The translations under genes were made by a program, and so were the position numbers. Positions 1 to 57,786 of a stretch of DNA of 64,000 nt are shown here, piece after piece. Within the stretch, counting starts at the first letter, position 1; each line of letters opens with the position of its first letter. The stretch comes from Moniliella sp. 'wahieum' (lineage: Eukaryota). Where the stretch lies: positions 310,001-374,000 of the forward strand of contig RSEE01000011.1 of assembly GCA_003971905.1 (NCBI GenBank). Direction: 5' to 3'. The notes under the pieces were generated by a model. That model saw nothing but the letters and a program-made list of their open reading frames with translations. It was not told where the DNA came from and made no database searches.

Positions 1-2273
1 TCTCTCTTGAACCTTTTTACTGAGGCAGGTCCGTACGTGTTATGGAAGCGGTCCCTAATGCCTCTTCTCGGCATTGGTGTTTTTTGCCCTAGGACACACA
101 CTACTTCAATAGTGCAAAACACGCATGTAGCGCGTTGGGACCTGACTTGTTGTATTAAGAGCCTCGTAGCATAACAAGTCCGGGCGCTGGGTGCAGCTGG
201 CACCTGTGCTTTTTTCCACGACTGCACAGTGCGTTTGCCAACGTGCGTGTCCAATAAAGAGGAGAGAACAACTGGAGGATCGGTTCTTTTACTGCAGCAT
301 ATCATCATCATGGGGGAAGCACCCTCCTCTCAGTGTGCATATATAAACGTACGACTTTTAACCAAAAGTAGAAACAATAATACTAGGTTGGGCTTGCCTA
401 TACTATGCGCATCACACACCTTCTCACATACTCGCCCTTCATTACAAACTAGTTCCCCATCATGTTTTTGACACCCTCTTTTGGCTCTGTTGCGGAGACG
501 AAAGAGAGTATGTAGTAAACATCTATAGAATCCATCTCTTATGCGGTATATACAGTGAGAGCCCCAAGTTGTGACCACACTGTACTGATGGAAGACGTAT
601 AGGTGCATTCACATGACAATGCATCTTTTCCATCATGTGTCCTATATCTCTTCGTCCCGGAGGTGGACCTTGCCCCCCTTTTGGCAGAGTCTGTCACAGG
701 CCTAGCTAGCGATGCTGGCGATGATGGATGGAGATGGCATTCGAGAGCTAAGGAGAGCTAGAGCTATGGGCCTTATTGATAGGCTCCTGGCCTGGAGGCC
801 AATGGAAACCCGTGGAAGGTCCGGAACTCACTGCCCCGGTGCACTGTGTGCATCGGGCCACGTGTCACTGAAGGCCGATGGGCTCTAGACCACTGGTGGT
901 CAACAGAGTCGGAGCTGCACTAAGGCAAAAGACCTTCGGCTTCACATCCTGTGGCGGGTCATCGGGGATATAAAACACAGACGTAACGGCGGTGAGGGAG
1001 AAGCGGTCCTTATACTTTTACGGTGTTTTTGTGCCCCAAATCGCAGCTGCATGTGATTCCCTTGGAAAAAGGAATCGGACTCACAGAAACAAGGGTAATC
1101 CTCTCGAAGACCGCGGCAGAACAAAAAAGGCGTCCATACGCAACTGTGGCCTCCCCACGCAACTGATCTCCACGCAGCTGCTCTCTCTGAGGGAATAACC
1201 TTCTGATCGCTCGCGGCTCGCTCGCCTAGCTGCTCCCCTAAAAAGTGATACCTGTGTTGCCGCGACAGAGACACTTCATTTTTGCGCATCCGTGTGAAGG
1301 AGAAAAAGACAAGTGTGCGAGACGGAGATTCAGCGTCTGGAGCGGCCCCACATACAGGAAAAAGTGAGAGGGACTCTCGTCGACATGGATACTGCTAAAT
1401 TCGCCGTGTCGAAAAGAGACTGTGATATGCTCCTCTCCACCTACGGACCTTCTCTCCCAATATGGCTATTACTGTATAGCAAGCGGCAACCAGGAACTAT
1501 CCTTCCGCCGCCGTGTCATTCTCATGATTGAGTATCGTTTTTATCTGCCTCCCCTATATCTCCATCATGACCGGTGACCGATGACCGTTGTCACCACGGC
1601 GGAGTTACATATATCAGGGTTGGGCACGTCAACACTGCCTCAACGGCTGAGCGCTGAGCCTCAGCGGGGAGAGTTTTTATATGGTTTCCACTCTCTATTC
1701 CCTCTGTGTATATGTTGATCCATGATCGGATACTTGGTACCCGGTACGACTGTGTGGGAGTCGACAACCCTCTGTACAGTAGTAACAATAACGTGAGACA
1801 CGTATAGCTCTCTCTCCGCTCGATGATGTTATTACGCGCGTGATATGATGAAGTGGTCGCGCATGCGTCAGATTCATCCGTAGTAATTAATAATTGAAGA
1901 CGTTGCTACCGTTGATCTCTATCAATTGTGATGCCAGTGATTAGTGATTTGGCAGTTATCCAAGAGTAGATAAGATTGTGTGCACATCATAGGTGCATGA
2001 AGATGCTTAATGCTTTTAAAGATTTTGCACTATATGGCCAACACACTCATTTTGGCCCTCTCGGTGCTTTTTGATGCTGATTGGTATAGATAGCCTATCC
2101 CAAGGACAATAGATATGGCGAGCACACACTTGGCTGGGTCGCCTTGTAGTACGGTGCAAGACTCGCGACTGATAACAATCATAATTGGACCCCCCAGAAC
2201 AGCTTACTTCGAAAAATCGCCATAAGATCTAAGAGCTGATAATAGCGCTGCCAGAAATAATCTATTGTTATGT

Positions 2274-2996
2274 CGCGTGACGTGTGACGTGTGACGTGTG
2301 ACGCGTGACGAGAGATGGGGAGGGGTGTTGCATGTTAGGGTCTTTGAAGCTTGAAGCTCTTGAAGCTTGAAGCTTGAAGAGAGGCAACCGGCAACCGATC
2401 TCCGCCGAGCAAGCGTTGAAGAACCTAACGCTACCAAAGACGCCCGCACTCAGCCATCGCTCGAGGCCCGTGCTCCATCTGTAAAACAAGCTGCCTTTCA
2501 AGCCGCCGGGGTGTGCATCATCATGCATCATGCATCATGCACCATGGATCGATTGATCATCAATATCTCAATCGTTAATTACTAATCGATAACAATTCAC
2601 CAGTCACTAGTCACTAGTCCTAGTCACGCCACACGTCACATGTCACACGTCATATGTCACAGTGTCACAGGATGGGCCGTGGGGCGTGGCACTGGCGGCC
2701 AGCCTCCCAATTCACGGGTTTAACGTTCCAGTCCGCTGGTAGTATGCCATAGTGGGCTTTAGTGCATTCTTAACCGGGAGAAGGTAGCCATAGTACGCGC
2801 GCTAGTCGGTGCCAAGTATTTAACGTCACGCGTCACGCGTCACACGTCAGGCCTCAGGGACGCGTCAGGCAATCGATAAGCGCTGCGCTAAGCGCTAATA
2901 AGCCAGGGTGGTAAAAGTGTTTCACTTTATCGCCACCGTCGCTGGGGGGTAGTGTCCGGGCGAATGTCTGTAGCCTTTAAATTTGAACGTTGAACG
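2274..2996. repeat. Cluster of 7-bp-period TNA+4-bp-palindrome arrays
   Basis: TGA-CGTG/CGCG x5 (2278-2310), TGA-AGCT (2345-2379), TCA-TGCA x3 (2521-2541), TAA/TCA in phase at 2583, 2590, 2597, 2604, 2611, TCA-CATG (2636-2668), TCA-CGCG/GGCC (2826-2856), TAA-GCGC-TAA (2889), TGA-ACGT-TGA (2984). Confidence 0.9.
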
Positions 2997-3333
2997 CCAT
3001 CGAGAGATCGAGAAAAAAGGTGACGTACGTGAGACGTTCGCGCGTGTCTTATCTGTGCTCTGCCGTGGGTTTACGCACTTTAAAGCAAGCCATATTTTCT
3101 TTCTTGGCTGAATCGTGTCTTCCTTTCGCAGCAGCTCTTCGGCGAGAGATATAAAGGATCAAGTGATCGGCAAACCACTCCTGGCCCTCCTCAGAATCCC
3201 CAACTGGGCGAAGCAGCCCCAAGACGCCGTTAACAGGCGTATTTGGAGACTGTTTGACGCGGTCAACGTTCACCGTTCACCACTGCCACAACTTCCACCT
3301 ATCCTGTGTCTGCTCTCCTCTGCACACGCCAGC

Positions 3334-4935: not shown

Positions 4936-5665
4936 GGTGCCATAAACGGGGTATTCGCTTTACATGGCTATATCTCCATGACCTCACACTGTTGATACCA
5001 CCCGCGTGTGTGCACCTTTCTTATATATGATCCGTTGGCTTTTTCTGTTATTGCATGCCATGGATTACATCGAAAGACTGAGTACTCAACGGAAGAGTAC
5101 TGAGATGTGATACTTTATTAGTGTTGTGTGTTTGTGGACCTGCTGTCAGTTTGGCAGTCGCGTTACCGTCATTTCTCTTCTCCCCCTTTTCTTTTGACCT
5201 CAGAAAGTTACATGTATATACTGCAGCTTGTTCAACCCTCAGGTGGGAACAAGGCACAAGGGTTTTAGTATACGTAAACCACATCATCACCATTGGATCA
5301 TTAATCTACTTTTCTCCACTGACAGCGGGTGCCGCCACCCACAAAGGCACAGAACATGATGTCTGTTGTTGTTGAGAGAGCCGACGGGTATAGAATAGCG
5401 CCACACAGAGGCGACGCGTGGTCAGCTACATGCATGATGGCGCTGACATGTATCCACACTTTCCGAGACTCAACAGTTGACTTGGATGAGGGATAGGAAT
5501 GGCCGTTGTCCCATGTTTCCATGTATAGGCGCTAACTGGTCATGAACGAGCGACATGAGCAACGTGGGGCCTGCAGTCGATATTCCGTTCTTATAGTGCT
5601 GACGTGTTGATGCGCGCTGATGTCAAATTTTAATTCCGTCTTCAAGCTTGCGCAGCGCGCAGCCT

Positions 5666-5706
5666 TGAAGCTTGAAGCTTGAACGTTGTTGAACGTTGAA
5701 CGTTCA
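5666..5706. repeat. TGA-AGCT / TGA-ACGT heptamer array upstream of GH55
   Basis: TGA at 5666, 5673, 5680, then 5690, 5697, and TCA at 5704. Confidence 0.88.
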
Positions 5707-12256: not shown

Positions 12257-12335
12257 TGAGCTTCAAGCTTCAAGATTAGTGGCTAGTGGCTGGGACCTGG
12301 TGTCTGGGGACCGGTGACCGGTGACCGGTGACCAG
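12257..12335. repeat. TCA-AGCT and TGA-CCGG heptamer arrays upstream of TauD
   Basis: gagcttcaagcttcaag; accggtgaccggtgaccggtgacc. Confidence 0.85.
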
Positions 12336-17861: not shown

Positions 17862-19365
17862 TGTCACATGTCACATGTCACATGTCATGCATCATGCATC
17901 TTGTAACATGTGACACATGCTCCGACAGGTGCGCGTGACATGCACACGGGCGACATGCGACAGCGCACCCTAGCGCCCTCCCCCGCCCCCTGCTGTGCCT
18001 GCCCCCTGCGCTCCTCCTCTGCCCCTGCCGCTGTTGCAGCGTGTTTGCGCCCCATGCGGCATCTGTTACGCGGCAAGTATGTACCCCGGGCTTGACGCCG
18101 GCCGGCTTGAAGCTTGAAGCTTGACGCGTGACACGCGTGACGCCTCAGCCTGAGGCTCACCTGAGGGATTAATGATCGATGATGTTCAGTGTGCATGATG
18201 CAGATGACATAATGCATGATGCTCAGCTAGATAATCGATACCTTCGATAATCGATAATCGATAACTAGACCTGGCGCCAAATCGGTGACGCGCACGTAAC
18301 AAGTAACGCGTACACAGTAATCCTAGTAGCCGGGTAGCCGGTAACCGGTAACCTGCACCCGGCTGCTCAGCGCGCGTCCCAAGCAACCGGTAAGTATCAA
18401 GTGTCCAGGGTGTTATTTACGTGTTGAACGTTGAACGTACGTTGACGCATTAACGGGTTGAACGTGTTGGACGTTCAAGTTGAGTTGATCGTTCGTTGAA
18501 CGCTAACAGCGTCCATGGTCTCCTGCGTCCGGATTCCACGTTCCACGTTCAACCGAACGTTCAACGTTCAACATCCCCAGCTGTTGGGAGTATAGCACAC
18601 CCGCGGTCAAATCCACCGTTCCCACCATGCGCCATGCTGTTTTCGGGGAGGATTGGACGTTGGACGTTGGGGGCTGGCTACTTCAGTCACACATGTAATC
18701 ACAGGAGCCTAACTAGTAACTAGTAACTAGTAACTAGTAACTAGGGAGTAGAGTGCGGGGGGGCCTGGATGTCTGGCTGTGACATGTGACATGTGACATG
18801 TGAGCCGCCGCGAGCGTGAGGCGTGACGCGTGAGGCCAGCGCGTTATAGACGCGGAGCCCGCGCTTGAAGCTTGAAGCTTGACTCGGTAGCTATAGCTTT
18901 TGCCCGCCTGAAGCTTGAGCGTTTTTGAGCCCTACATCAGTTTATGGTTTAGGCACAGCGTTTCTTTGTCCCAGCCTTACGCTTAGGCGCTTAAGCTCTG
19001 TAGATGATCGAGGATAGATGAGACTGAGTACTGAGTCTCAGTACTGAGTTCTCAGAAGTACTAACTAACAACTTAAAAGAACGCGTCATGAGACGTGCCT
19101 GACGTGTGGCGTGATCATAATAAAGGAGGTGATAATTATCCGTGGCGCTCTTCACAGGCAGGCTCACACTCACCTCAAGCCTCAAGCTATATCCGCAAAA
19201 CCTGGCCATCGATCATGATCGCAGAGGCACATTAGGGTACGGGAAGGCAGCCCAGCCATGGCTACTCTGGACCTCGCGTGTCTACGACCGCTGTTGAATA
19301 CACACAGAGTAGGGCCGCCATGTATCAGCTGACACATCTGTGATCTCAACGTTCAACGTTCAACA
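17862..19365. repeat. Dense cluster of TNA+4-bp-palindrome heptamer arrays upstream of the homeobox gene
   Basis: TCA-CATG x3 then TCA-TGCA x2 (17864-17898), TGA-AGCT/CGCG (18108-18131), TAA-TCGA (18248-18264), TAA-CCGG (~18342-18352), TGA-ACGT (~18425-18437), (TAACTAG)5 18710-18744, TGA-CATG x3 (18780-18803), TGA-AGCT (~18866-18882), TGA-GTAC (19025-19047), TCA-ACGT (~19346-19363). Confidence 0.92.
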
Positions 19366-25769: not shown

Positions 25770-26887
25770 GATGGAGCGGTGGATGGGGTAGGGATGCAGG
25801 AACAACCGGAGGTGGTGGATGGAAGGGGAAATGGGAAGAGAAGACCCGGGGGGGGGAATGGATGGTGCTATTCACCTGGCCAAGGGGAGTGTCCAAGGGT
25901 GCGGGTGATCCCGATCGGCGCGGGAGGAGCCGGGGGCAGCACGGGGAGGCTGTGGCGGCAAGAGAGGGGCAATGGAGGGACACCGTGCATCGAGAGGATC
26001 GAATACGAGAGCACATGAGACACATTCACAGATTCCGATTCCGTGCCCATCGCCTGGCTGGCGCGCTGCCTGCCGCTTTCCCAGCCGGTGCCGGCGAGGC
26101 AGTGGGCGACACCTGGGGCCTGGAGCCATGGTGGCTCGCCAATGGGACCGACGCCCAATGCTTCTGCTTTGACGGATTGGCCGTGGATTCTACCGTGTGT
26201 GGTTTTCATGTCGAAGAAGGGCGGTGGCGCCAACCGCACGGGCCTGCATCCCATCATGCATCCCGGCTGCCCAGCCGCACGGGGCCAGTGCGTGTGGTGC
26301 CCCGATCACATTCCCCCTCGCGATCTTCGATCGAAGATTGGAGCGTCAGATTCCGATTCAGATCCCAGACGGCCTCGCAGCGCCTCGGCCGCAGAGCCCC
26401 AGATTATGCTGTCACCCGGTCACACCCACGAGCCAGCCTGGGCGCCGCGCGGACCATTCATCGACGTCATCGCGTCACGCGTCACTGGCCACCAGTGAGC
26501 AATGGCACGTGGCATGTGGGCTTGCACCGAACGCAGGTGGAATGTGAAAGAGGGCATTGGAACTGCTGGGGGCCGATTACGCAATTGGCGCTGGCGATGG
26601 CGCGTCGATGGCGGGGGCCAGCGGGTGGCGAGCAGCGGAATGGGCAGAGGCGGAATGGGTGCACGCGCCATGCTGGCCTCAGCCTGAGGAGCGCCTCAGC
26701 GCTTAGCTCAGCAGCTTCGGGCTGGTCGTGGTGGCGAGTCAGGCGGTGGCGCGCAAAGTCCAACTCCGGTTGAAGCTTCAGTGACTAGTGAAGGCCGAAG
26801 GCACGCGCACTGGACAACACAATACACCACAGCGTGTTCTGTCCGTCCTCCCTTCGCCCCACCACCACCACCACCATCCCCCCCCAC

Positions 26888-36769: not shown

Positions 36770-38230
36770 TTGAAGCCTGAGGCTCAGGTCCTCAGGCCTG
36801 GTCTTGTGTTTTGGCTGCTGGCATTGCCGTCATTGTCTTGACAACACTCTCAAGCGGGACCTTTTTTTTCGTGGATACCATACCAGTAAGCCACGAAAAG
36901 GTTCGGTTGGGGTGGGTTGTTGGCCGCGGTGGATCGAGGATCGCTGTTGCGTGCTACACAATCAAGTTTTCCAGAGAGAAGCGGTGTAGACTCGTATTGG
37001 CCAGCATCCTGAGCCAGGAACCCCCAGCCGGCCATACTTCTAAGAGGGCGTCGAGCTGCGGCCCCCACCAGTCACTGATCATCGATCATGCATCATACAT
37101 CATGCATCTACCGCCCCACAACTTGCGTGACACGTGACTGGATGGTCAATTAGGCACGGGCTGTGGACCGTCCAGCGCTCGATGGAAAAGAGGATCCGGA
37201 TATCTACCGCTGCTTCTTCGGGCCCGCCGGGACCGGGCGCTCATGCTATGGCTCGCTCTCACACCAAGATGTGTACGACGACATGCCGCCTCTTCGGCCC
37301 CATTCTCAGTGACGCGGTGACGCTGAGCGGAAGAGCAAGTTTCTTCTGTGGTTGGTGGCTTCGGAAGTCGGGAAATGGGCCAAGTGGGAAATTTATGGTG
37401 TTTTCCACCATCAGTATCAGTAGCGCGACGAGACCGCCACCACCGCCATCACCACGCCCCGCCTTGGGGACCTCCCGGTCACGAAGCTGGGGTGTATCGT
37501 ATTCCGTGGCTCTCTTCTAGTCTGGCTTTGGGGCTAGCTCGGATCGGCCTCTCCCTCGGCACTTTTCAGTTTGCATATATAATGGCGTGGAAGGCACAAT
37601 GATTAATGAGGCGCTGAGCTCAGCCTGAGCGCTGCCGGTTGACGCGGTTGACGGGTGACGTTGAGTAAACTGAATTGTGCGGGGTAGTCCGTATGTATAT
37701 CGTCTACCGCCAACCAAAACCACGGGTGATCGAGACACCACGCGACGCGCATACGGAGTAAGAATCAAGCCGGAAGCCGGACAAGGGGATGTGGGGAGTG
37801 TTGGCTACTTTGGCCGTGCAAGTTGCGTTACCGTCGGAGGTCAGTGGATTGGGATGCCGATGCAGGGCATATGGTGAGTGGGAACCCACCGGCTATGGGG
37901 CCGAGGGGATGTTAGGATAGCGCTTGGCCCGGTGAGGACGACTCCATCGATAGATGGGTTACCGGTTACCGGTTACCAGTTGAACAATGATTTACCTAAG
38001 CCCTAAAAGACCCCAACAAGCTGTGGAAACATAGGAACAATCGGGGTATTGTGTGTGGTCTTCGTATAGGTGTTTTGAGAGTGCGGGGGGAAGGATACCT
38101 GAGTACTACCAATGTAGCTGCAACTATGGCTGCTATGTTCAGAGTGGGGCAGAAGAGCAGTTCTGTTCTAAGATCTGACGGCCGTATCGGCACGTGGGTG
38201 GAGGCTTGCCGGTTACCGGCTACCGGTTAT
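36770..38230. repeat. Heptamer array cluster between the Ady2-like gene and the retrotransposon
   Basis: TCA in phase at 37072, 37079, 37086, 37093, 37100; TGA-GCGC (~37608-37632); TTA-CCGG-TTA-CCGG-TTA (37959-37975); CCGG-TTA-CCGG-CTA-CCGG-TTA (38209-38229). Confidence 0.88.
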
Positions 38231-39836: not shown

Positions 39837-40429
39837 CTACCGGCACCACTACACCAGTTGTGATGTCACAGACAAGAAGACGCGAGCGTTCGTTAGTAGT
39901 TACTCCCATCAGGATTCAGGTAGTACCGGTTACCGGTCGGGGCGATGGGGGGGTATTGGAATCACTAGCACTTCTCAGCACCCCCCGCTCTTACACCTTC
40001 CTATTTCAGTCCACACAACATGCGATGTGCTGAACACAGCATCCGATCCGACGCCCATATGGAGCTGGTGCCGCCCACCACACCCGGGGTGAAACAATGG
40101 ACCGATAGCGCCAGTCCCGAGGACCCGGTCTGACGCGTGACGTGTTGGTGCCCAACCTCTTTGGTTGGGAAATACTTCGAGTACTGAAGGCCACGCTGAG
40201 ACCATGCTGACTGTGTATGAGGACTGAATGTTCCATGTTCCAATCTTAACAAAGCCATGGATTTCCGCACAAACGGCGCGACGCAACAATGGGGAACGCT
40301 GGAAGATGGTGGTACTGAGTACCTTTTGAAGGGGGTGGGAGGAGCAGGACCAAGAGGGATTTGTCTATGTGCGCGTGAGGGAGGATGTAGGGGGGGGGGA
40401 TTGAGGAGATAGAGGGGAACACGAACGGT

Positions 40430-43833: not shown

Positions 43834-43835
43834 CC

Positions 43836-46270
43836 ATGGCTGAAGAGGAGCGTCTCCTGGTTTCCGACTTGCCTTTGGCGTACGTCTTTTCCTTTTTCTT
43901 TTCTTTCTGCCCATCAACACGCAACAGCCCCCACAACACAGTCACTAACCCCCCCCCCCTCCCCCCGTCCCCCCCCTCTCTCTCTTTCCAGAAACAGCCA
44001 GCGCCCTCAGTCTCTCCCCGCAAGCTATCTCTCATGCGAACCAACAAATTTTACGGCCCCACGTGTTCGCCACTCGGTCGCAGCAGGGGGTGCAACACAG
44101 CGGGTCTCCTATGCTGCCATGACCCCTTCTCCCACAGCTTCACCCCCCCATCTCGCCTCCGACGGCCCAGCCTATCCCTTTTCACCTGAAGAAGTGGGCC
44201 ATCTTTCCTTGGCTAGCCACTATTACTCGAGCAAGGTGGGAAGAATGCACCGCCTGGGGTCACGTCGGCACCGCGGATCGTCACCCTACATCGATCAGCA
44301 GCAACGCACTCGCTACCACATTGGCTCCTCTAATGACTCGGACGAGAGTGATGGAGAGTCACTGGTGGGCAACATATCATGCTCAACGTCAATCTCTAGT
44401 ACGCTCCCTAATAGGCTCTCCCACGTCTAGTACGAGGTTCAGTCTCCTCTCTGATGGGGGCGTTTCCGCCGTTCAGAGCGTCCCGTCAGCTTCCCTCCTG
44501 CTTCTCATAATAGCGGCACTTCCACTATGCCGACGGCTCCAAAGATAACGATGGAAGCGCTAGGCGCTATGGGAGACCTGTCCAACGTAACTTTACCTAA
44601 GCTCCCTTTGCTTGGTGGCCATCGCCCTCATCATACTGCCGAAAGTGGGATCAGTACCCTGGATCCAAGCCGGACCACGTCTATGGTCAACTTTAGCCAA
44701 CTTGACCCGACCCCACGGCGCGGCGCTGGAAGGGCTGCATGGGGCCCCAACGGCGGCGGCCACATTGTCCTCGGTGCAGGCGGATACGAGGATGATGACG
44801 GAATCAACTTGAATATCGGCTCTTTTGGCCGCACAACTGCCGCCTATCGTGCTCCCCGAGACGAGGAAGCAGGTTCGCTGCGTCGCCGAAATGGGTTTGC
44901 CATTACTACTGAAGATGCCATGGCAACCTACGGCGACGACGACGATGACGACGACGGGAAGAACAAGTCTCAGGTGGCCCAGCGGCTCTTGAATGGCATT
45001 TTAGGTCGCGGGGTGGACAAAGAGTACAGATGCAAGATGCGTTGGAACAAGTTCAAGGTTGCCATGTTGGTTAGCAACGCTTACTTGACGTGCATCGCCA
45101 TTGCCGGCCTGGTTGGGACAATCCTGACGTGGACCAATGTATGGAACCGGTCAGACATTGTACGTGTTGTGAACCGCACCGAGCTCATTTTGGGCACGAT
45201 CGCCATGTCGCTCTTACTGGTGACTTCCATCATTGGATGGGTGGGCATTCTGCTCAACAACCGAGCCTTTCTCTCTGTCTGGGCGCTTTTGCTCTGGGCC
45301 TGTTTTGCCTTCACTGTTGCACCCGGGTACATTGCTTACAAGCGCCACACGTTTAACCTCGATGGCAAAATGAACGAGGCATGGTCCCGGGACCTCGATG
45401 AGGAAAAGAGGGCCATGGTGCAGAATACACTTACCTGTTGTGGATGGTTCAGCCCCTCCAGAATAGCATCCGAGACCAACCTGTGTTATGCACGGTCAGT
45501 CCTTCCTGGGTGCAAGGGCCGAGTGCTCCGGTTTGAAAGGGCGGCGTTGCGATACATTTACACATGTGCGTTCAGTCTAGTTGGTCCGCATCTGGTTGTC
45601 ATTGTCGTCTCGCTCTTGTCCAGCAACCATGTGACCTATCGCTTTGGAAAGGGCGTCACCCCACGAGCCTACCATCTTACCCCAGCAACCGTGGCGCTGA
45701 TCCAACAGGAGTTCTATAATAATTTGACCGACATGTATGGCGCTGGGATTGTGCCAGAGTACGCGCTGTGCAGCAGCGGATGAGCGCTTTGTCGACCTTG
45801 AGCAGAGCGCAAACCAGTGTTGTGACCGTTCAAGATCGAACTCACCTCCTGAATGAGGGGGAAGAGGGGGGGCGGAGGAGGAGGAGGAGGGAGGAGGAGG
45901 AGGAGGAGGAGAGGAGGAGGCGGAGGAGGAGAGGGAGGAGGCGGAGGAGGAGGAGGACAACGAGGAGACTGAATTGGAACGTTCCAAGGGCAAAACGGTC
46001 AGAGCGGACTGTCGGATTCGGTCACGAAAAAAATCCAAGCACGCCACTGCTCATACCTACGATGAAACACCGGACGACGCTTCGGACGGCGTTGTATCCT
46101 ACAATGCTGAATCCGACGATGCAATCTCGGTGTTTCTCAACCCCACTTGCTGGCGGCTTCCAGCCGCACGGCTGGCTCCTCCTCACCCACGGGATATATC
46201 AGCTCTTCCAGCCTTTCTCTTCACCCTCACAGACGAATCAGGGCCATACGTGAGGCCTAGCCCCCCTTGA
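43836..46270 (+). CDS. Tetraspanin, basidiomycete Tsp2 family, with long N- and C-terminal tails
   Basis: Core ORF 44527-45783: RWNKFK, four TM segments, GILLNNRAFL, PGYIAYKRHTFNL.GK, QNTLTCCGWF (CCG), CYARSVLPGCKG, SNHVTYRFGKG.TP. First exon MAEEERLL plus intron 43860-43990. C-terminal extent uncertain. Confidence 0.85.
45857..45957. repeat. Purine-rich (GAG/GGA)n tract, probably encoding poly-Glu
   Basis: About 100 bp of gaggaggag with interruptions. Confidence 0.85.
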
Positions 46271-49802: not shown

Positions 49803-50039
49803 GCCTGGGCGCCTGAGCTAAGAGTCTGCCTGCCTGGGGCGCTGGTTTACACGGATGGTCTCCCTCGATCATCTAGATGTCGATTAGTGCTGGTCGGCAG
49901 GACTGGGACCGCTGTCAGCTGCCACTGACAATCTACTGCCCATTTGTTCTGCAGTCCCTTCCAAGCGGCTGGTCTTATCTTGCCGTGGCGGCACTGCCTC
50001 AGCTTCCGTCTGTGGGTTAGGGATGGGCGGATGCTCATC

Positions 50040-51935
50040 TCAGATCTCAGATCTCATTGAAGACATCTTTTGGTTTGCTGTCTCGATAGATTGGGGCGGG
50101 CAATGGATCGAACGTCTCTTCCTGATCGGATGAATCAGCCAATCAATAACTTAATCAACTGTTGACAGTATAGATGGGCAGTTCGGACTATTCAATTGAA
50201 TGTTGACATGGACAACGTTCAGTTGAACGTTGAACGTTGAACGAACGTTGACACTACGCTGACAGACGCAAGTGGTGAATGGTCGTCCATATGTGGGGGG
50301 CGATCATCTGTATGTCATCGAAGGTATCATCGGGTACCACCACATGGGGCCATGCATCTTAAGATCTTGCCACAAATCATTACATCCGCTAGGCTAGAGG
50401 GTGACGTCATCCGTAACGCTTGGGTCGGGCGGCTCTCGCAAGCGCATGGCATATGGACGCGGACGCCTGAAAGTACCAACGCGACGCGAAAGGGATGGGA
50501 CGTAAGGCTCAGCGCGTGCGTGTGAGGGCCGGAGTCACCGGTCACGGTCCGACCTGACGCTCCCGAAGAGGTGTTGTAACGAACATGACTTTTCTGTCGG
50601 CCAAGAAGCCAAGGCTTGCAGAAGACCTGCCGACTTTCTTTGAACGGTGGGGCAATCTCATCAGAATTCAAGTTTTGCGTGTTCACGATGTGCGCAAACT
50701 ATTGCACCATGCACTACCACGTGTTGTCGCATGTCGGGCGCCACCTGTCTCAACGCCATCGAAGCCAGGGCGGCGGGCCAGGCGGGGTCTCGCTGATGGG
50801 CTGCGAGGGGAAGGAACGTAAGGAAGAAGACCTAAGGAACCCTCTGGGACAGCTGAGGCCTGAGATCCTGAGAGGATGGGGGGATGGGGGGATTGGATCC
50901 AGAGCACAGGATCCGTTGCAGACTGACAGACTGGCCTCGGGCTGGCCAGGCACGAATCCGATCACGTCGATCAATAAGTTGATCACCAAGGCGATCATCG
51001 ATCATCGATCTCGATCAGGGCGATCACACAGATCACCACCGGGCTCAGCGCGCGCTGGGCCTCAGCATGATACTGCACATACTCCACCTCCCAGCGTTGA
51101 GCCGCTGTGGACAGGGTGCACTCTTTCTTTGTTTCTGGCGGCTGAGCCTTAGCGCCTCAGCAGATGTGCAGCCGCAAGCTGCGTAAATGCAACCGGTAAG
51201 GCCTATGGCCGAAACTCGATAACCGGTACCGGGCGACTGGCGACCGGTGACGGTGAGCGGATATAACCCACCGGTAACTAAAGATGATCGATGAATGACT
51301 AGGTAAACGTTACCGCACAAGGGTAAGAACCCGGTAGCCAGTCGCTGGCAACTAGCAACGGCTACCGGGTATTGATCTCGACGGCGAAGGTGATTAAATT
51401 GGAGGTGCGCAAGGGCCTGCTACCAAGAGAAAGAGGCGTCATTAATCATGCATCCTTCGGACACTGTGGATGGCTTTTTGTGGTATGGCCGAATAAAGCT
51501 GTGGCCACCCATCATCCCATTCATAGTACGGCGCACATGCCGTCAATGCCACCGCGCGTGCCATCCTGTCACAATTGGCAGAGCGTCGCTGCATCATTCA
51601 TGTGAAGCAAACCGACGCGCAGCTGACGCGTTACGTGTTACGCGTTACGCCTCGACGAGCACAGACCATGGTGCACGATGGATGATGCCCTCTCACAACT
51701 TGCTCATCCCGTTGTCCTGGGCACCCCCGCTTGCCTGTGACACATGCATGACGGAGTGATGCAGGTGATGTATGCACGCCACCACGCGTGACAGGTGATG
51801 GGTGGCGCGCAGCGCGTGACGCGTGATGTGACATGTGATATGCGCCGCCTGAAGCCAAGTGACATGTGACGCGTGACGCGACGCTGCACTCGGCTAAAGC
51901 TCGCTTGCGCTGTGCGCCATGGGTGACCGGTGACG
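50040..51935. repeat. Heptamer array cluster upstream of the F-box-like gene
   Basis: TCA-GATC x2 (50040-50056), TGA-ACGT (50224-50240), TGA-GGCC-TGA (~50854), TCA-TCGA (~50995-51010), CCGG arrays (51219-51280), TGA-CATG/CGCG (51860-51880), TGA-CCGG (~51924-51941). Confidence 0.88.
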
Positions 51936-52299: not shown

Positions 52300-55200
52300 A
52301 TGGGGCTTCTCCGCCGCCCCTCCCATCCAAGGCCTCTGCCCCCGCCCTCCCCCCCCGCCGCCCGCGGTGGAGCAGGTCAGCCGGCTCCCACAGACGGTGG
52401 AGGAGGAGGACGATGCTCCACCCATGCTGCGCTACTCGATCGTCGGATTCGACCTCGCCGACGCTCTCCAAGCATTTGATGTCGATCCCACCCCTGACCC
52501 GAGCCCGAGCCCCAGTCCAGGCTACCGTCTCAACCTCAGCCTCAGCCTCAGCCTCAGCCTCAACTTCAACCTCAGTCCCTGTTGTCCCAACCTCTTTTCC
52601 AATCCGTCGGTTCCTTGCCGTCAAATCCGTCCAGCCAGCGTTTGCACCCTGCTGTGCCTTCCCCTCAGCCCAAACGCAGCCCCCGGCACAGCAGCAGCCC
52701 TCCGCTCCCCTCCAATTCCATCCGGGAGAGCTTGTCCCTGCTCCTGCTGCCCCCGCCCCCCACATGGGGCGGCTGGGCGGCCCGCCTACCTTAGTGTCTA
52801 TGCCCAAGAGCCCAACTACCCTGTTCTTCCCAAAAGCGTCAGCCACAACGCCGTGCACATGGCTCGGGTCAACCCCTCCCCAGCCCACCTTCCATCCATT
52901 GCGTCACAGCCGGTGCTTTCCCCTGCTGTGGTGCCCATGCCTGCGCTGGCTTCGGCAAATGCTATGTTTCCCCAATACGCCCTCCAGCCAGCAAGCCTTC
53001 GTTGCGCATTCTCACCAAGAGACCAAGTCCAAGGCGTCCACCTCCACCCACTCTCTCCGGCCTTCCTCGCACGTCGCAGACCGGTTCGGCCCCGCCTATG
53101 TCCCCCAGACGGCGGCCGTCAACGCTGGCTCGGGTCGCTACCTCTCCCACTCCCAAAGCAGTCTACCCCATGCGGACAACGTTCCTAAGCGCTCTGGTAG
53201 CCGCCTGATCAAGCTTTTAGTCGGCGGCGTAAGGAAAAGCCAGCCCCCATCGTTCCCGGCTCCGCCCCCGTGTCCCCTGTTGGTACTCCCATTTCCCCTA
53301 TTCGGGATGGCGGTCCGTCCTCCGATGCGTTTTCACCCCCCGCGAGCGCACAGGTTAGCGCTGTAAACCTTTCCTCTCCCCGCTCGCCGCTCAACCGAGC
53401 CTACCCCCCCGTCTCGGCGTCTGCACGCGCGTCGCAAGCTCACCAAACGCGCCAGAGCACGGAGTCCTTCTCCTCCGCCATGAGCTCAGGCAAAGATGCC
53501 TCGTACTCGGCGGCGGACATGTATGCGACACCCCTCCCGGTGGTCAGGCTGCGGCGCATCCTCAGTCTGCCCCACTCGTCTGCCCGTCACCAAGGACCCT
53601 GTTTCTCCCTCGCCCCATCCGCATCGGCTACCGCAACCGTTACCTCCCCCTTGAATACGGGGAGCGTATCCCCGCTGTCGAACCCGACGCGTAGCAGCTC
53701 GCTTGCGTCGGCCATTAGCATCGACTCCTCTGCTCACGACGAGGGACGGGAAGGCGTGCAAGGGACCAAAGCTCCTCTGACGCGACCGAAGCTTCGGAGC
53801 GCCTCGATGTACCGCAGGAGGAGTCAGAAGAGGAGGAAGAGGAGGAGAAAGAGGAGGAGGTGCCCGAACCGCCTCCTCGTCCTCCACTCCCATTCCAGAG
53901 GTGGACCCGGCGATCCAGCGCTTGGGCAAAGCGGTGCCCACTCTCTCCCATACCATTCTTCGCTACGCACGGAGCAACACGGGCTTGTATCTTCCCTCTG
54001 CTACCGATGGCGACGAGTCCTTTTCCACCGCAGAGTCATCCACGCCATCACCCTTTGCAGCAGCGAGCAGCCGTCGCCCGCAGCGGCAGCGCGAAAAACG
54101 TACCTACACCCGTGGCTTGGCCGCCGTGTTCTCGGCTGCCACTCCAGTCCTCTTGGCCACGCTGCTGCACTACCTCGAGATTGATGATGTAGTGGAGCTA
54201 GGCATGACGTGCCGTTCTATCCGGGACACCTTCTCCTCTGCTCTGGGTGCGGAGCTGGTGCTACACCGCTTCCTTGCTCCGATTGGGTACCAAACCTGGG
54301 CTGGGCAGTTGGCTGTGTTGGATGCAACAGCGGTCGATGGACCAGGAAGCGTAGCGCTCCTGCCACGGCAAGGGGAAGAGCCAGTGGAGCTGACGGCGCT
54401 GGATGTGATGAACTATGCTTTGGCGAACCAAGTGCGATACGATTACTTGCCCTGGCTGCGGCGGTGAAGAGGGGTGGTGTGGACCGCCGTTGGCCCCGCT
54501 TTGCACGCTGTACCACCCGCGCGCACAACCGCGTACTGGCTCGTCTCCGTGCTCAGCCGAACTACGACCCTACCCCACGCGAGGGGGCACGCGCACGGGT
54601 GTTGGATGAGGTGCAGGGCACCACCTTGGGCCCGCTCTTGCCCATCTACGCCATGGTCCCCTGGAAACCATGCGGCGCCACCCCACTTGGACGTCTTGTC
54701 GGAACGCTCAGTCTGGGCATGGCAACAGCTCGGATTCTCGCGTCGCCAGGCTGTGCGCAAGGCACAGGCCGAACCCGCACTGACGGTGCGTGTGCCCTGG
54801 CGGCCTGGGCGGGCGCCTGTGTGCGGGTCTGGGTGCCAGTCGCCAACTCAGGAGGCTGGTTGGAAGACGAAGACTTGGCGTTGGCCGGGGAGAGCTGTCT
54901 CGTTCCGGCGTCCGAGCGCACGCCAAGGCGGACCATTTGATGGTCGAAGGCGATGTGGTCTGGGATATGGCTGTTGGGACCGAGCGCAACGAAGGCAAAT
55001 TCATCTACGACGGCACCTTTATCCGGTATGTTCTTTCCCTTGCTCGGAACGTCCTGGACGTATGTGCACAGCGTAGAAAACTGATGTTATGAGAACAGCG
55101 ATTTGTCCTTTACCTACGATCTCTGGGGCCACCTGCCCTCATGGCTCAATGCGATGACCCTGCCCCCCGGGTGGTACCACAACGTAATCCACCCTTCGAC

Positions 55201-55777
55201 GTCCTTGCGTCCGGTCGTGTTCCTTGATTTGCTACCGTTCCGAGACGAGTTGATGAGCAGCCTGCACCTATCGCAGTCGCTATTGCAGGGCCCACGCTAC
55301 GCCTTGCACAAGTGGATGGCGCATGCACGGGCTTCTGTGCCGCCTCCCAAACCGGAAAAGGAGCCAGTCAAGGGGACACCAGCTGCTCACATTGCCCAAG
55401 TGGTCGCCTCCCTAGACTCGGGTTGGAATGGGGAACTGCAGATCGAGCTGGAAGGCACTGCGGAGGCCTTGCACGACTTGATCGTGCGCTGTGCGGGACC
55501 TCATGCTTCCTCGTCCCAAACCCGTTCCATTTTGGCGGCTGTGCTGGACCCGCGGGCGGATGTGGCGGCGCGAAAGTTACCCCCGCTTCGCCAACAGTTC
55601 CTCTCCCCGATCCTACCAAGTTCTCCTTCCCCTTCCATGTGCTGCGAGAAAAATGCTCGCCTGGAAAGATCGTGCTCCATCCACTCGCTGTACAGGGGGG
55701 CAGCGGTAGATTGTCTCCCCCACCGCCATTGCCACCGCCACCGCTACTTCTCTCATCTCCGCCTCTGCCTCAACTGA
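52300..55777 (+). CDS. Hypothetical protein with Pro/Ser-rich N-terminus, F-box-like segment and a conserved-looking C-terminal domain
   Basis: LLATLLHYLEIDDVVELGMTCRSIR (F-box-like), RAHNRVLARLR, VRVWVP, HLMVEGDVVWDMAVG...GKFIYDG, GHLPSWLNAMTLPPGWYHNVI, FLDLLP, IELEGTAE. Intron ~55026-55099. Confidence 0.65.
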
Positions 55778-57786
55778 CTCGATACTGGTTACCCACTCCG
55801 ATTTATATGATAAAAGAAACCCCGGCAAGGTACCCACCACACAGCCATGATTGAAGGTTGTTTACTACCCTTCTCAAGGGGGCCCACAGCAGGGACTTTG
55901 TCCTTGCTCTGGGCCCCCTCCTCTCGCTACTCTTGTCCCTTGTGCAACGACCAACTGCTTTTTGGATTGCTTCGATACTACCCTGCTTCTTCTTCTTCTT
56001 CGTTTCTCCCCGGCCCGGAGCCCGATGGGGATACCCCCTACCAATATCCCATACCTGTTTACCCTGGCCATCTTCTTTTCCCGTTTCGTTCTCGCTACCC
56101 CTCGTCTGTGATCGTGATCGTTCTGAATTCTGTCCAAGACCACCACCCTTTTGCTTGCTCACCTTGCTTGTCCTCTTGTGGTCATCAACTTGTCCCTCGT
56201 CTTCTCCGTCTCCGTGTTCCATCTTGCTTCGTGTCTCGTTCTTGCCCGCCCTCCCCCGCCCTCCACCCCTCCGAGCCTTACCCCCAATCGGATTCGGCCT
56301 CCTTGCTGAGGCGCTGAGGGCGCCCTACCTTCTCTGGTTCTCTGATGTCTTCCAATGAGTAAAATCAACGTTGAAATGTTCTTCTGCCTGATTCCATCCC
56401 TTGTGGGACCCACTATCATCCTCTCGCACTCTTATATCGTGTCTCTTTCGTACGCGGACAACCACCAGCCTCTTGCGGAGACTGTTCTCTATACCGCAGT
56501 ATGCTTCACTGCTTCCTATATGTTGTGGATGGGTTAGGATTATGGACGCTTGTGCATGATGCTCCGACCTCGGGTAAAGTCAAGATCCTATATACGTCTG
56601 ATGGGAAGAGCTGGCCTGGATATGTTCTTGGAGTTGTCAACAGACAAATGGAGCTTCCCTGGCCCATTATATTGCTTCCACCGTCGACACCGTCCGAGTT
56701 AACCTACGGCTGGTATAGTTTCGGTCACTACGGTTATTAGCAGTCACTGTGGAGTGAATATTGAATGCTGTTAGCCACGTGGCTCTTCCAACTGACGCAG
56801 CAATAGCTTATTCTTCGAGGCTGACCTCTCGCCACATTGCTCGTGGCCTCAATGTAACAGGGACATAAGATGTCGTGAGAGCCATCCGTCCATCAACGAC
56901 TGGTTCAACTTGCTTAGTATGCGCCTACCACCGATTCTGGCCTTGTCGCCGTGTCTGCTGGGCGCTTCGCTACTGCCTCACCTCACAGACGGCTACTATT
57001 GTACGTCCCCCAGAACGAGTTCCAAGTCGTTCCCAATAATATGGTGAGCCGAACCGAGTGAAGTTTGCTATCAGCCGAGACCGCGCGGCACCGAGCGCAC
57101 GTACTCAGCTTTGTTTGGTGGAGATCACGCGCGCCTTCCTCAGTATCTGTCCCAAGGTAGATGGCCAACGTGGTCGTGTGCTGCGCAAGTTGGGGACGAA
57201 CACATTCACCACGCCCCTCTAGGTGGGTGTGGAGCCCTGAGGCCTACTATAAGCCAAAAGGTAGCCCAACACGAGCTGTGTGGTATCAATGCTTGGCGTA
57301 CCAGGTCCCTCGGCGTTTTCTCTTCTGTATTTGGTTGGTTCATTCGCGTCATTGGCCAGTGCGAACATGCGTGCCCCGAACGGAGCGCACCGACAGCTTG
57401 AGAACCGGCTCTTGGTGAGGAGCGCCCCATGGATATATGGTAGGTCGTGCTTTTAAATATGCCTCGGAGAAGGAGGCGCAGAGAACCACATGCATTGAAA
57501 GGAACAAAAGCGGAATTGGAGGCGGCTGGCGTTCCGCTGACCTCCCTAGCTTGGCTAAGCGCTAAGCTTAGCCTTAGCGCCCAATGTGGCGGGATTGCTC
57601 GTCTGCGTTTCGATTCCACACCCCTGTCGCCTGAATACCTCGTAGTGACTCTCCCTGTAAGCCTTTGTTGCCCTGCCCTTGGCTGGCTCTGTTCTTGAAG
57701 GATGCCTCGGGGCTGGTAAGGCATGCGCGTCCTGACTCGGTGTGGTGTGTGATTGTGTTGTGTCGATTCCCGTTCTTTTCCTTCAG

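What the first reader, a model, noticed from the sequence alone, without database searches (positions are those of the whole stretch)
1568..57580. Window-wide intergenic heptamer grammar: tandem TNA + 4-bp palindrome arrays using all 12 C/G-containing palindromic tetramers
Seen directly: many independent intergenic arrays repeat a 7-bp unit made of TNA followed by a self-complementary tetramer. Examples are AGCT (2345, 5666, 18108), ACGT (5690, 50224), CATG (17864, 18780), CCGG (12315, 37959), CGCG (2826), CTAG (2604, 18710 x5), GATC (50040), GCGC (1648, 2889, 57556), GGCC (2847, 50854), GTAC (19025), TCGA (18248) and TGCA (2521). I saw no clear tandem arrays of the four all-A/T tetramers. Each array alternates a perfect 6-bp palindrome (A-xyy'x'-T) with a 7-bp interrupted palindrome centred on N, so it can fold back at either axis. 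Ordinary slippage explains tandem copies but not a fixed period, fixed T-N-A and a palindromic spacer shared by unrelated units. Inference: either a dedicated generative process (staggered 7-nt cutting with fill-in, or hairpin/snap-back extension of the kind known for palindromic repeats in vitro) or a factor that reads TNA-N4-TNA geometry. From memory, smut fungi have 7-bp intergenic repeats of the TCACGAT/TCGTGAT type that fit TNA-N4; this needs checking.
Basis: partly seen in the sequence, partly recalled or inferred. Interest (0 to 1): 0.9.

Follow-up and report, generated by a model that had tools for sequence, protein, structure and literature searches.

The report
Palindromic 7-base repeats between genes
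The gaps between genes of this smut-related fungus are peppered with short head-to-tail repeats of many different 7-base units that all obey one rule (a mirror-symmetric unit centred on T-any-A), which looks like the scar of an undescribed, lineage-specific DNA duplication process and not like a set of protein-binding sites.

Summary
Perfect period-7 tandem runs number 63 against about 4 in shuffles. Of these, 34 have a unit of TNA plus a palindromic tetramer, i.e. the 7-bp interrupted palindrome xy-TNA-y'x' (2.7% expected). Only T..A occurs beside the centre: 34, against 1 for the other three complementary pairs. Runs of period 6, 8 or 10 have no palindromic units.

Arrays tend to start and end at the edges of the palindrome (24 of 68 ends, 9.7 expected). 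They avoid Pfam-matched coding stretches.

The grammar is not general. In 642 kb of metagenome DNA, class units stay at the chance level (23 of 898 runs, against 65 of 205 here). A Lactarius-like contig and two short contigs do share it.

The host is an Ustilaginomycotina-like basidiomycete. No genome is held.

My best reading (0.4) is mutational. A dyad-symmetric activity makes 7-nt staggered breaks that are filled in, and slippage then changes copy number. Basidiomycete transposons with 7-bp target duplications (Kyakuja, hAT7) are candidate agents. The base-independent complementarity of the outer pairs remains unexplained.

Hairpin-assisted slippage (0.25) and a regulatory role (0.12) are the rivals. 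Nine literature searches found no description.

The parts
1646..1659 (.). (GCTGAGC)x2.0; TGA+GCGC
   Evidence: perfect period-7 run, class unit
2277..2310 (.). (GTGACGT)x4.9, one C>T step from TGA+CGCG; its last unit is still TGACGCG
2344..2379 (.). (CTTGAAG) array, two perfect runs split by a 2-bp indel; TGA+AGCT
2519..2541 (.). (CATCATG)x3.3; TCA+TGCA
2602..2619 (.). (AGTCACT)x2.6; TCA+CTAG
2625..2661 (.). imperfect array TCACATG/TCACACG/TCATATG (CATG with C/T transitions)
2824..2843 (.). (CGTCACG)x2.9; TCA+CGCG. A low-depth contig of run X1 differs here in a pattern that fits one unit fewer
2847..2858 (.). TCAGGCCTCAGG, 1.7 copies; the only GGCC form besides 50853
2885..2898 (.). (GCTAAGC)x2.0; TAA+GCGC
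2983..2996 (.). (GTTGAAC)x2.0; TGA+ACGT
5664..5683 (.). (CTTGAAG)x2.9; TGA+AGCT; 75-140 bp upstream of the first ATGs of the pectate-lyase-like gene
5688..5704 (.). (GTTGAAC)x2.4; TGA+ACGT; abuts the AGCT array
12259..12274 (.). (CTTCAAG)x2.3; TCA+AGCT
12309..12333 (.). (GGTGACC)x3.6; TGA+CCGG
17862..17887 (.). (TGTCACA)x3.7; TCA+CATG
   Evidence: identical in a 235-nt contig of run X1
17885..17900 (.). (CATCATG)x2.3; TCA+TGCA; shares its TCA with the previous array
18105..18124 (.). (CTTGAAG)x2.9; TGA+AGCT
18244..18264 (.). (GATAATC)x3.0; TAA+TCGA
18338..18353 (.). (GGTAACC)x2.3; TAA+CCGG
18423..18438 (.). (GTTGAAC)x2.3; TGA+ACGT
18556..18572 (.). (GTTCAAC)x2.4; TCA+ACGT
18710..18744 (.). (TAACTAG)x5.0, the longest perfect array; TAA+CTAG
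18778..18803 (.). (TGTGACA)x3.7; TGA+CATG; inverted copy of the array at 17862
18863..18882 (.). (CTTGAAG)x2.9; TGA+AGCT
19023..19036 (.). (ACTGAGT)x2.0; TGA+GTAC; lies in an imperfect array 19019-19055 that mixes TGA and TCA
19346..19364 (.). (GTTCAAC)x2.7; TCA+ACGT
26471..26485 (.). (CGTCACG)x2.1; TCA+CGCG; inside a long stop-free frame with no Pfam match, coding status not known
37957..37977 (.). (GGTTACC)x3.0; TTA+CCGG
39924..39937 (.). (GGTTACC)x2.0; TTA+CCGG
50037..50056 (.). (TCTCAGA)x2.9; TCA+GATC
50222..50243 (.). (GTTGAAC)x3.1; TGA+ACGT
50853..50864 (.). CTGAGGCCTGAG, 1.7 copies; TGA+GGCC
50992..51010 (.). (GATCATC)x2.7; TCA+TCGA
51637..51650 (.). (CGTTACG)x2.0; TTA+CGCG
51813..51880 (.). 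(CGTGACG)x2.0 at 51813-51826 and x2.1 at 51866-51880, with TGACATG runs (51826-51838, 51859-51870) and unique sequence between them
57554..57567 (.). (GCTAAGC)x2.0; TAA+GCGC; upstream of the RRM gene

Best explanation
The arrays are mutational scars, not a code.

Proposed mechanism. In this lineage some activity with two-fold symmetry acts on 7-bp interrupted palindromes of the form S-K-T-N-A-M-S, with T and A flanking the centre. It duplicates exactly those 7 bp in place. The simplest chemistry is a pair of nicks staggered by 7 nt around the centre, followed by fill-in and ligation. This is the reaction that makes target-site duplications, and a tandem copy remains when the inserted DNA leaves or the integration aborts.

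Later history. Once two copies exist, ordinary replication slippage adds and removes whole units. Point mutations, mostly transitions, erode the arrays.

Candidate agents. These are cut-and-paste DNA transposons of Basidiomycota that make 7-bp target duplications (Kyakuja, hAT7) or a relative.

Shown:
- the grammar and its restriction to period 7;
- the strict T..A rule;
- copying of whole units;
- array ends at the edges of the palindrome;
- restriction to certain lineages;
- location in non-coding DNA.

Inferred: the staggered break, the fill-in and the identity of the enzyme.
For: 1. Separate component. The excess of perfect runs over shuffles falls smoothly with period: 37, 40, [59], 9.5, 7 and 5 for periods 5 to 10. 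Removing the 34 class arrays leaves 25 at period 7, which fits that curve.

2. Symmetry about one point. Of 35 interrupted-palindrome units, 34 have T(-1)/A(+1) and 1 has C/G. Among all 16 base pairs beside the centre only TNA is enriched: 34 vs 1.3. GNA, recalled as the stable triloop, scores 1 vs 1.8.

3. The copied unit is the palindrome itself. Start phase 1 occurs in 14 of 34 arrays, end phase 7 in 10 of 34, and L mod 7 = 0 in 12 of 34. Together 24 of 68 ends lie at the edges, with 9.7 expected (P = 1e-5). Phases that start at the A....T hexamer are rare (1 and 2 of 34), although such hexamers abound (273 vs 176).

4. Protein-like base preference at +/-2. y is G or T in 25 of 34 arrays against 89 of 197 single-copy seeds (P = 8e-4).

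5. No dependence on stem strength. Stems with 0/1/2 G:C pairs number 0/22/12 in arrays and 23/133/75 in seeds.

6. Restricted to lineages. Class share among runs of at least 12 bp is 65 of 205 here, against 23 of 898 (2.6%, the chance level) in 121 metagenome loci. A Russulales (Lactarius-like) contig, L062, has three unit types.

7. Enzymes that make 7-bp duplications exist in the phylum. Kyakuja makes 7-bp TSDs and occurs in five orders of Agaricomycotina, Russulales among them. hAT7 of Pucciniales also makes 7-bp TSDs (PMC12730594, passages read).

8. Recalled, not tested here: DDE transposases and integrases often prefer dyad-symmetric targets with T-N-A or Y-N-R at the centre. Examples are Tn10 GCTNAGC, PIF CWCTTAGWG and HIV GTWAC.

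9. Dynamics. Paralogous copies in L062 differ in unit number and variants. A low-depth contig differs from the window at 2837-2846 in a pattern that fits minus one unit and plus one unit (my reading of five listed substitutions). Class arrays reach 2.4 or more copies more often than others: 19 of 34 vs 7 of 29 (P = 0.01).
Against: - Outer complementarity. The two outer pairs are complementary in 34 of 41 TNA-centred units (1/16 expected) with almost any bases. By my arithmetic, independent half-site preferences would give about 11%. Reading by a protein does not explain complementarity without identity; nucleic-acid pairing does.
- No transposon found. Pfam matched no transposase in 213 of 339 ORFs of at least 85 aa, plus 12 longer ones. 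A scan for identical 7-mers flanking terminal inverted repeats found 0 pairs, against 0 to 2 in shuffles.
- Kyakuja and hAT7 are reported for Agaricomycotina and Pucciniomycotina. The paper does not mention Ustilaginomycotina.
- As I recall, excision by known cut-and-paste elements seldom leaves two perfect duplications.
- Arrays of up to 5 copies need repeated hits or later slippage.
- The longest array, 18710-18744, is in phase TAACTAG, not in the palindrome's phase.
Confidence: 0.4

Rival explanations
1. Hairpin-assisted replication slippage with no dedicated enzyme. A 7-nt unit xy-TNA-y'x' is the smallest possible hairpin, with a 2-bp stem and a 3-nt loop. Looped-out units that fold escape proofreading and loop repair. 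Self-complementary units are therefore born and expand faster than others.
For: - This is the only reading that explains complementarity of the outer pairs without base identity (34 of 41).
- Three-copy arrays are predicted to fold with TNA as the triloop, at -3.8 to -6.6 kcal/mol and z down to -3.3. Two non-class arrays do not fold better than shuffles.
- Class arrays reach higher copy numbers (19 of 34 vs 7 of 29).
- No array has an all-A:T stem (0 of 34, P = 0.03).
Against: - Physics should be universal, yet control DNA shows the class at chance level (23 of 898).
- No palindromic units occur at periods 6, 8 or 10; there is 1 of 7 at period 9, and period 5 is at chance (21 of 89 vs 27%).
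- C..G, G..C and A..T beside the centre are absent (1, 0, 0 against 34), although nearest-neighbour energies do not separate them. GNA loops are not enriched.
- There is no gradient with G:C content of the stem.
- The preferred closing pairs are 5'-G..C and 5'-T..A, not the 5'-C..G that I recall as stabilising DNA triloops.
- A 2-bp stem is marginal.
Confidence: 0.25
2. Selected cis-elements. The arrays would be promoter or chromatin elements, for example sites for a factor that reads T-N-A at 7-bp spacing on both strands, nucleosome-excluding or kinkable DNA, or self-complementary RNA when transcribed. Selection would then maintain them.
For: - The arrays sit in non-coding DNA, often on the 5' side of genes: the MFS, pectate-lyase-like, TALE-homeobox, nucleoside-hydrolase and RRM genes.
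- The 1.8-kb region upstream of the homeobox gene holds about 20 arrays.
- The same grammar occurs in two distant basidiomycete lineages.
- TNA-tetramer-TNA 10-mers with a different N are also enriched (22 vs 5.0).
Against: - Eleven different tetramers, four centre bases and both orientations are mixed within one spacer, so no single core exists for a sequence-specific factor.
- Many arrays are perfect and differ between paralogues, which points to fast turnover and not conservation.
- Mismatches between neighbouring units do not spare the 'rule' positions: 1:9, 2:4, 3:4, N:2, 5:4, 6:7, 7:7.
- No expression or chromatin data could be brought in.
Confidence: 0.12
3. Assembly or sequencing artefact.
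For: Only one independent stretch could be checked, and the run that holds it may come from the same source as the window.
Against: - A 235-nt contig of a public run is identical over 17747-17981, including two arrays. A second contig covers 2779-2988 with the arrays present.
- The same grammar is seen in unrelated metagenome contigs L062, L034 and L100.
- Arrays are 14-35 bp, far below read length.
Confidence: 0.02

Closest known systems
Target-site duplications and excision footprints of DNA transposons with 7-bp TSDs: Kyakuja (KDZ) of Agaricomycotina and hAT7 of Pucciniales (PMC12730594, passages read). Galileo/1360 of the P superfamily was seen only in a search listing (PMC2775673); its GTANTAC target is recalled.
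   Same: A 7-bp duplication made by a dyad-symmetric enzyme. The elements are present in Basidiomycota, including Russulales, where contig L062 shows the grammar. A palindromic target with a free centre base is known for 7-bp TSDs (recalled for Galileo).
   Different: No element, transposase or TIR was found here. The targets of Kyakuja and hAT7 are unknown to me. Footprints are not known to build arrays of 3 to 5 copies. The outer pairs here are complementary without preferred bases.
Palindromic targets centred on T-N-A: Tn10/IS10 (GCTNAGC, 9-bp TSD) and PIF/Harbinger (CWCTTAGWG, 3-bp TNA TSD).
   Same: T at -1 and A at +1 around a free centre base within a dyad-symmetric site. GCTGAGC and GCTAAGC are units here (1646, 2885, 57554).
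   Different: Those enzymes prefer particular bases at the outer positions and duplicate 9 or 3 bp, not 7. They leave no tandem arrays.
Ordinary micro- and minisatellites that grow by replication slippage
   Same: Head-to-tail copies. Unit number varies between paralogues, and probably between strains. Decay is by point mutation.
   Different: Slippage predicts no fixed period, no fixed T..A and no self-complementary unit shared by unrelated arrays. The class is an extra component at period 7 only.
Heptamer repeats of bacteria: GGGAATC-type repeats of Xanthomonas and Nostoc (Rehm et al. 2015, PMC4692102, abstract start only), and the intergenic heptamer-array hairpins reported by earlier agents of this scan
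   Same: A 7-bp period in intergenic DNA.
   Different: Those use one unit per genome or locus, often as opposed arrays that form long hairpins, in prokaryotes. Here many units share one rule, lie in direct arrays of 2 to 5 copies, and occur in a fungus.
In-vitro elongation of palindromic tandem repeats by hairpin self-priming with thermophilic polymerases
   Same: Self-complementary repeat units.
   Different: Fold-back copying would alternate N with its complement. Here the same N dominates (all perfect arrays; 33 vs 8 among short forms).

Membership tests
Tandem repeat (micro/minisatellite) | Head-to-tail copies of one unit | tested here: met
   63 perfect period-7 runs; 57 TRF rows of period 7
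Tandem repeat (micro/minisatellite) | Unit number varies between alleles or copies | tested here: inconclusive
   Three paralogous copies in L062 differ in unit number. One low-depth contig fits a change of minus one and plus one unit at 2824-2858. No population data.
Transposon target-site duplication / excision footprint | A resident element whose TSD length equals the duplicated unit (7 bp) | not testable with these tools
   No genome is held. 7-bp-TSD families exist in Basidiomycota, but they are not reported for this subphylum.
Transposon target-site duplication / excision footprint | Filled sites: the same 7-mer on both sides of an insert with element termini | tested here: not met
   0 pairs of identical 7-mers flanking 12-nt terminal inverted repeats in 64 kb, against 0 to 2 in shuffles. 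Elements without TIRs would be missed.
Transposon target-site duplication / excision footprint | The duplication is bounded by the enzyme's symmetric cut sites | tested here: met
   24 of 68 array ends lie at the edges of xyTNAy'x', with 9.7 expected
Transposon target-site duplication / excision footprint | The element's target logo matches xyTNAy'x' | not testable with these tools
   TSD sequences of Kyakuja and hAT7 are in a figure that is not held, and not in the supplement
Transcription-factor binding-site array | One conserved core shared by the copies at different loci | tested here: not met
   Eleven tetramers and four centre bases are used. Only T..A and self-complementarity are shared.
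Hairpin- or cruciform-forming repeat | Self-complementarity that gives a fold more stable than composition predicts | tested here: inconclusive
   Of 6 class arrays folded, four 3-copy ones have z between -1.6 and -3.3, and two have z = -1.3 and +0.5. Energies are only -3.8 to -6.6 kcal/mol.
Hairpin- or cruciform-forming repeat | Abundance follows stem or loop stability | tested here: not met
   No gradient with G:C pairs in the stem. GNA, CNG and GNC centres are not enriched.
Bacterial intergenic heptamer-array hairpins (STRR-like) | Opposed arrays of one unit that form a long hairpin, in a prokaryote | tested here: not met
   The host is a eukaryote. Arrays are direct. Only distant inverted pairs occur, e.g. 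17864/18780, which lie 892 nt apart.

The most novel reading that the evidence does not exclude
Some basidiomycetes carry an active dyad-symmetric nuclease or transposase, free-living or domesticated. It writes 7-bp duplications at T-N-A-centred palindromes into open, promoter-proximal DNA. That would create a fast-evolving layer of repeat-number variation next to genes. It would be an enzyme-driven mutational signature not yet described in eukaryotes, and its target rule (complementarity without base identity) would imply recognition of a DNA structure and not of bases.
Probability: 0.3. Interest if true: 0.85.

Novelty: new variant of a known kind. Interest (0 to 1): 0.72.

Why it matters
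Short tandem repeats are usually treated as products of unspecific slippage. Here one rule (period 7, T..A beside a free centre, a self-complementary unit) governs dozens of unrelated arrays in one 64-kb window. That rule is absent from 642 kb of control DNA. This pattern is the signature of a specific molecular process, and genomics and mutation-accumulation lines can pursue it.

If an enzyme is behind it, the arrays record where it acts, mostly upstream of genes. They could be a source of rapid regulatory variation in smut-related and mushroom-forming fungi.

If hairpins alone are behind it, the strict T..A rule points to an unknown property of 7-nt DNA loops in replication or repair.

In either case the arrays offer ready-made, highly variable markers for strain typing.

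Tried and rejected
- Whole genome. None is held, so there is no genome-wide census and no transposon search.
- Sequencing runs. One study holds traces (share 0.11). Only short low-depth contigs lay on the window; uncovered parts say nothing.
- Earlier notes of this scan. There is nothing on this genome, by sequence, or for fungi. One search lists bacterial heptamer hairpins only.
- Literature. Nine searches found no description of this grammar and nothing on TCACGAT-type smut repeats.
- Footprint model with a 3-bp TNA duplication plus 4 nt from the element ends. It predicts runs TNA..TNA, i.e. phase 3 to 5 and L mod 7 = 3. Observed: start phase 3 in 3 of 34, L mod 7 = 3 in 2 of 34, and 6 of 44 among 10-bp runs. 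Rejected.
- hAT-type hairpin footprints, worked through on paper. They give A-N-T centres or a period of 10, not the arrays seen. Rejected as the sole source.
- Is N free while the other positions are constrained? No: 2 of 37 mismatches fall on N.
- Neighbouring arrays related by swapping the two central bases of the tetramer (AGCT/ACGT, CATG/CTAG and so on). 6 of 16 pairs within 60 bp, against 1.5 in permutations (P = 0.001) for runs of at least 12 bp. Only 2 of 7 (P = 0.18) for runs of at least 14 bp. I formed the idea on the same data, so it is a lead only.
- Mini-hairpin thermodynamics. Not supported.
- Taxon of contig L034. No homologue was found.
- Stop codons in all three frames as the selected feature. 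Rejected, because TAG units are absent, both orientations are mixed upstream of one gene, and it would not explain the palindrome.

Full report
WHAT IS THERE

The window is eukaryotic. It encodes PTPA, ALG11, a tetraspanin, WD40 and RING proteins, an MFS transporter, a pectate-lyase-like protein, a TALE homeobox protein, peptidase M1 and others, split over short frames as expected for genes with introns. The best PTPA relatives are Ustilaginomycotina: Tilletiaria at 59% identity, then Pseudozyma, Thecaphora, Violaceomyces and others. None is close, and no whole genome is held.

Perfect tandem runs of at least two copies, observed against 20 dinucleotide-preserving shuffles:
- period 5: 89 vs 51.8
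- period 6: 54 vs 13.6
- period 7: 63 vs 4.05
- period 8: 10 vs 0.5
- period 9: 7 vs 0.1
- period 10: 5 vs 0

TRF gives 57 of 140 rows with period 7. TNA occurrences are autocorrelated at lag 7 (227 vs 134 +/- 10, z = 9) and at lag 14 (z = 2.9), but not at lags 6 or 8.

Of the 63 perfect period-7 runs, 34 have a unit that in some rotation is TNA plus a palindromic tetramer. This is the same thing as a 7-bp interrupted palindrome xy-TNA-y'x'. Random 7-mers give 2.7% (P = 3e-36). Thirty-five units are interrupted palindromes. Of these, 34 carry T and A next to the centre and one carries C and G (CGCAGCG at 5650).

Among all sixteen possible bases beside the centre, with the outer two pairs complementary, only TNA is enriched: 34 vs 1.3 expected. 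GNA scores 1 vs 1.8, and CNG 1, GNC 0 and ANT 0. No unit of period 6, 8 or 10 is palindromic. One of seven is at period 9, and period 5 is at chance.

- GGCC reaches only 1.7 copies, at two loci.
- All-A/T tetramers do occur at 1.7 copies, at three loci.
- Their absence among the 34 arrays is only P = 0.03 against the single-copy background.
- 29 period-7 runs do not fit the rule. Several are one transition away, such as TGACGTG from TGACGCG at 2277 and GGCAACC from GGTAACC.

ANATOMY

Whole units are copied, including the free centre base. Among 37 neighbouring unit pairs with one mismatch, only 2 differ at N. The outermost positions differ most: 9 and 7.

Array ends coincide with the edges of the palindrome. 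Start phase 1 occurs in 14 of 34 arrays, end phase 7 in 10 of 34, and length is a multiple of 7 in 12 of 34. Together that is 24 of 68 ends, with 9.7 expected (P = 1e-5). Phases that would start at the A....T hexamer are rare, although such hexamers are themselves enriched outside arrays (273 vs 176 +/- 17). Single-copy xyTNAy'x' sites are enriched only mildly (231 vs 188 +/- 15).

The share of class units rises with run length:
- 9 bp: 3%
- 10 bp: 6.5%
- 12 bp: 21%
- 14 bp: 50%
- 17 bp and more: 19 of 26

Class arrays reach 2.4 or more copies more often than others: 19 of 34 vs 7 of 29 (P = 0.01).

The centre base is G or C in 26 of 34 arrays, which simply mirrors the seeds at 174 of 231. Stem strength does not matter: stems with 0/1/2 G:C pairs number 0/22/12 in arrays and 23/133/75 in seeds.

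There is a base preference at +/-2. y is G or T in 25 of 34 arrays against 89 of 197 seeds (P = 8e-4). x is G or C in 28 of 34 against 138 of 197 (P = 0.08).

Even so, complementarity itself is the rule. Of 41 arrays whose unit holds a TNA, 34 have both outer pairs complementary, 3 only the outer pair, 2 only the inner pair and 2 neither.

LOCATION

None of the 34 arrays overlaps a Pfam-matched stretch. They cluster in spacers at 1.5-3.3, 5.65, 12.3, 17.6-19.4, 37-40, 42.4, 50-52 and 57.5 kb. These spacers mostly lie on the 5' side of genes. One array, at 26471, lies in a long open frame with no known family.

The 1.8-kb spacer upstream of the TALE homeobox gene is almost filled with arrays of different units, in both orientations.

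No repeat family other than the arrays turned up. No tested frame matched a transposase family. I tested 213 of 339 frames of at least 85 aa, plus 12 long ORFs. There were 0 cases of identical 7-mers flanking terminal inverted repeats.

IS THE GRAMMAR GENERAL? NO

Such arrays of one unit are therefore common.

In the 642,623 bases around them, only 11 of 173 other perfect period-7 runs are of the class, and several of those are AGCT again. Among runs of at least 12 bp, leaving out AGCT types, 23 of 898 (2.6%) are of the class. That equals chance. In the window the figure is 65 of 205.

The exceptions are informative.
- L062 holds TGAAGCT, TGAGATC and TAACCGG arrays. It comes from a Lactarius-like fungus of the Russulales, since a helicase fragment is 85% identical to a Lactarius protein. 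Its three paralogous gene copies carry the AGCT array with different unit numbers and variants.
- L034 holds TCAGGCC and TCAGTAC. Its taxon is unknown.
- L100 holds TCAGATC and a mixed AGCT/AATT/ACGT array.

The rule thus occurs in at least two distant basidiomycete lineages, and not in DNA at large.

INDEPENDENT READS

Only one study holds traces of the window. A 235-nt contig is identical over 17747-17981, which includes two arrays. Another contig covers 2779-2988 with nine differences. Five of these, at 2837-2846, turn the series CGTCACG-CGTCACG-CGTCACA-CGTCAGG-CCTCAGG into one with one CGTCACG fewer and one CCTCAGG more. That interpretation is mine, and depth is only 2.

HOW IT MOST LIKELY WORKS

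The class is an added component at one period. It has strict two-fold symmetry about a free base, a fixed T..A, ends at the symmetric positions +/-3.5 bp, a mild protein-like base preference at +/-2, no dependence on pairing strength, and restriction to certain lineages.

This points to an enzyme-driven in-place duplication. I propose 7-nt staggered breaks around T-N-A followed by fill-in, which is the chemistry of target-site duplication. Slippage and point mutation follow. CGCG, CGTG/CACG and CATG units lie side by side at 2277, 2625 and 51813-51880, as expected from CpG transitions.

Enzymes that duplicate 7 bp exist in the phylum. Kyakuja elements make 7-bp TSDs, have 5'-CA..TG-3' termini and no TIRs, and are found in five orders of Agaricomycotina including Russulales. 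hAT7 elements of rust fungi also make 7-bp TSDs (PMC12730594, passages). Cryptococcus KDZ elements of the Dileera clade make 8-bp TSDs (bioRxiv 10.1101/2024.08.15.608186, passages).

From memory, dyad-symmetric targets with T-N-A at the centre are typical of several DDE enzymes: Tn10 GCTNAGC, PIF CWCTTAGWG and HIV GTWAC.

WHAT THIS DOES NOT EXPLAIN

Both outer pairs must be complementary while nearly any base is allowed. That is the mark of nucleic-acid pairing.

This keeps the hairpin rival alive. The unit is the smallest possible hairpin, and three-copy arrays are predicted to fold with TNA as the loop. But hairpin physics fails on lineage restriction, on the exclusive period, on the T..A rule, on the lack of GNA units and on the lack of a G:C gradient.

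A hybrid remains open: an enzyme that acts on a small folded or melted target.

A regulatory role cannot be excluded. It does not fit the diversity of units or the turnover.

COMPARISON AND NOVELTY

Nine searches of the open literature found no account of this grammar. Subscription journals are not covered.

The bacterial heptamer repeats noted earlier in this scan and by Rehm et al. (PMC4692102, abstract start only) are a different thing. They use one unit, often as opposed arrays, in prokaryotes.

I file the finding as a new variant of short tandem repeats with an unexplained, probably enzymatic, origin.

Noticed in passing
window 15713-17601 (- strand), upstream spacer 17600-19750: A TALE-class homeobox gene (Homeobox_KN, E = 8e-22 at 15832-16332) with a very G+C-rich (0.68), repeat-laden 5' part. 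Its 1.8-kb upstream spacer is the densest array field in the window. I did not test whether this is a mating-type HD gene, and no second homeodomain frame was found next to it at E <= 1e-5.
   Followed up: partly
window 2277-2310, 2625-2661, 51784-51880: CGCG-type units sit beside CGTG/CACG and CATG units. This is the pattern expected from CpG-to-TpG transitions on both strands, and hints at CpG hypermutability (possibly cytosine methylation) in this fungus.
   Followed up: no
window, pairs such as 5664/5688, 2602/2635, 2847/2885, 18710/18778, 37077/37085, 51866/51922: Neighbouring arrays are often related by exchange of the two central bases of the tetramer (AGCT/ACGT, CTAG/CATG, GGCC/GCGC, TCGA/TGCA, CGCG/CCGG). 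That is 6 of 16 pairs within 60 bp against 1.5 in permutations, but I formed the idea on the same data and it is not significant for runs of at least 14 bp.
   Followed up: partly
window 18124-18141: The only palindromic unit outside period 7: (ACGCGTGAC)x2, which in rotation is the 9-bp interrupted palindrome CGTG-A-CACG.
   Followed up: no
L062 1-16021: A Lactarius-like contig with at least two, probably three, tandem copies (about 5.4 kb apart) of a MOV10/SDE3-like helicase gene (AAA_11). Each copy is preceded by a TGAAGCT-type array of different length.
   Followed up: partly
window 45855-45957, 52529-52575, 53816-53860: Long GAG/GGA triplet and CTCAGC hexamer repeats lie inside open frames, probably coding low-complexity acidic or Gly-rich stretches. 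They are unrelated to the heptamer grammar.
   Followed up: no
L100 301-355: One array mixes units with AGCT, AATT and ACGT tetramers and then switches from TGA to TCA, which forms the perfect 12-bp palindrome TTGAAGCTTCAA. This is an example of symmetric changes within an array.
   Followed up: no
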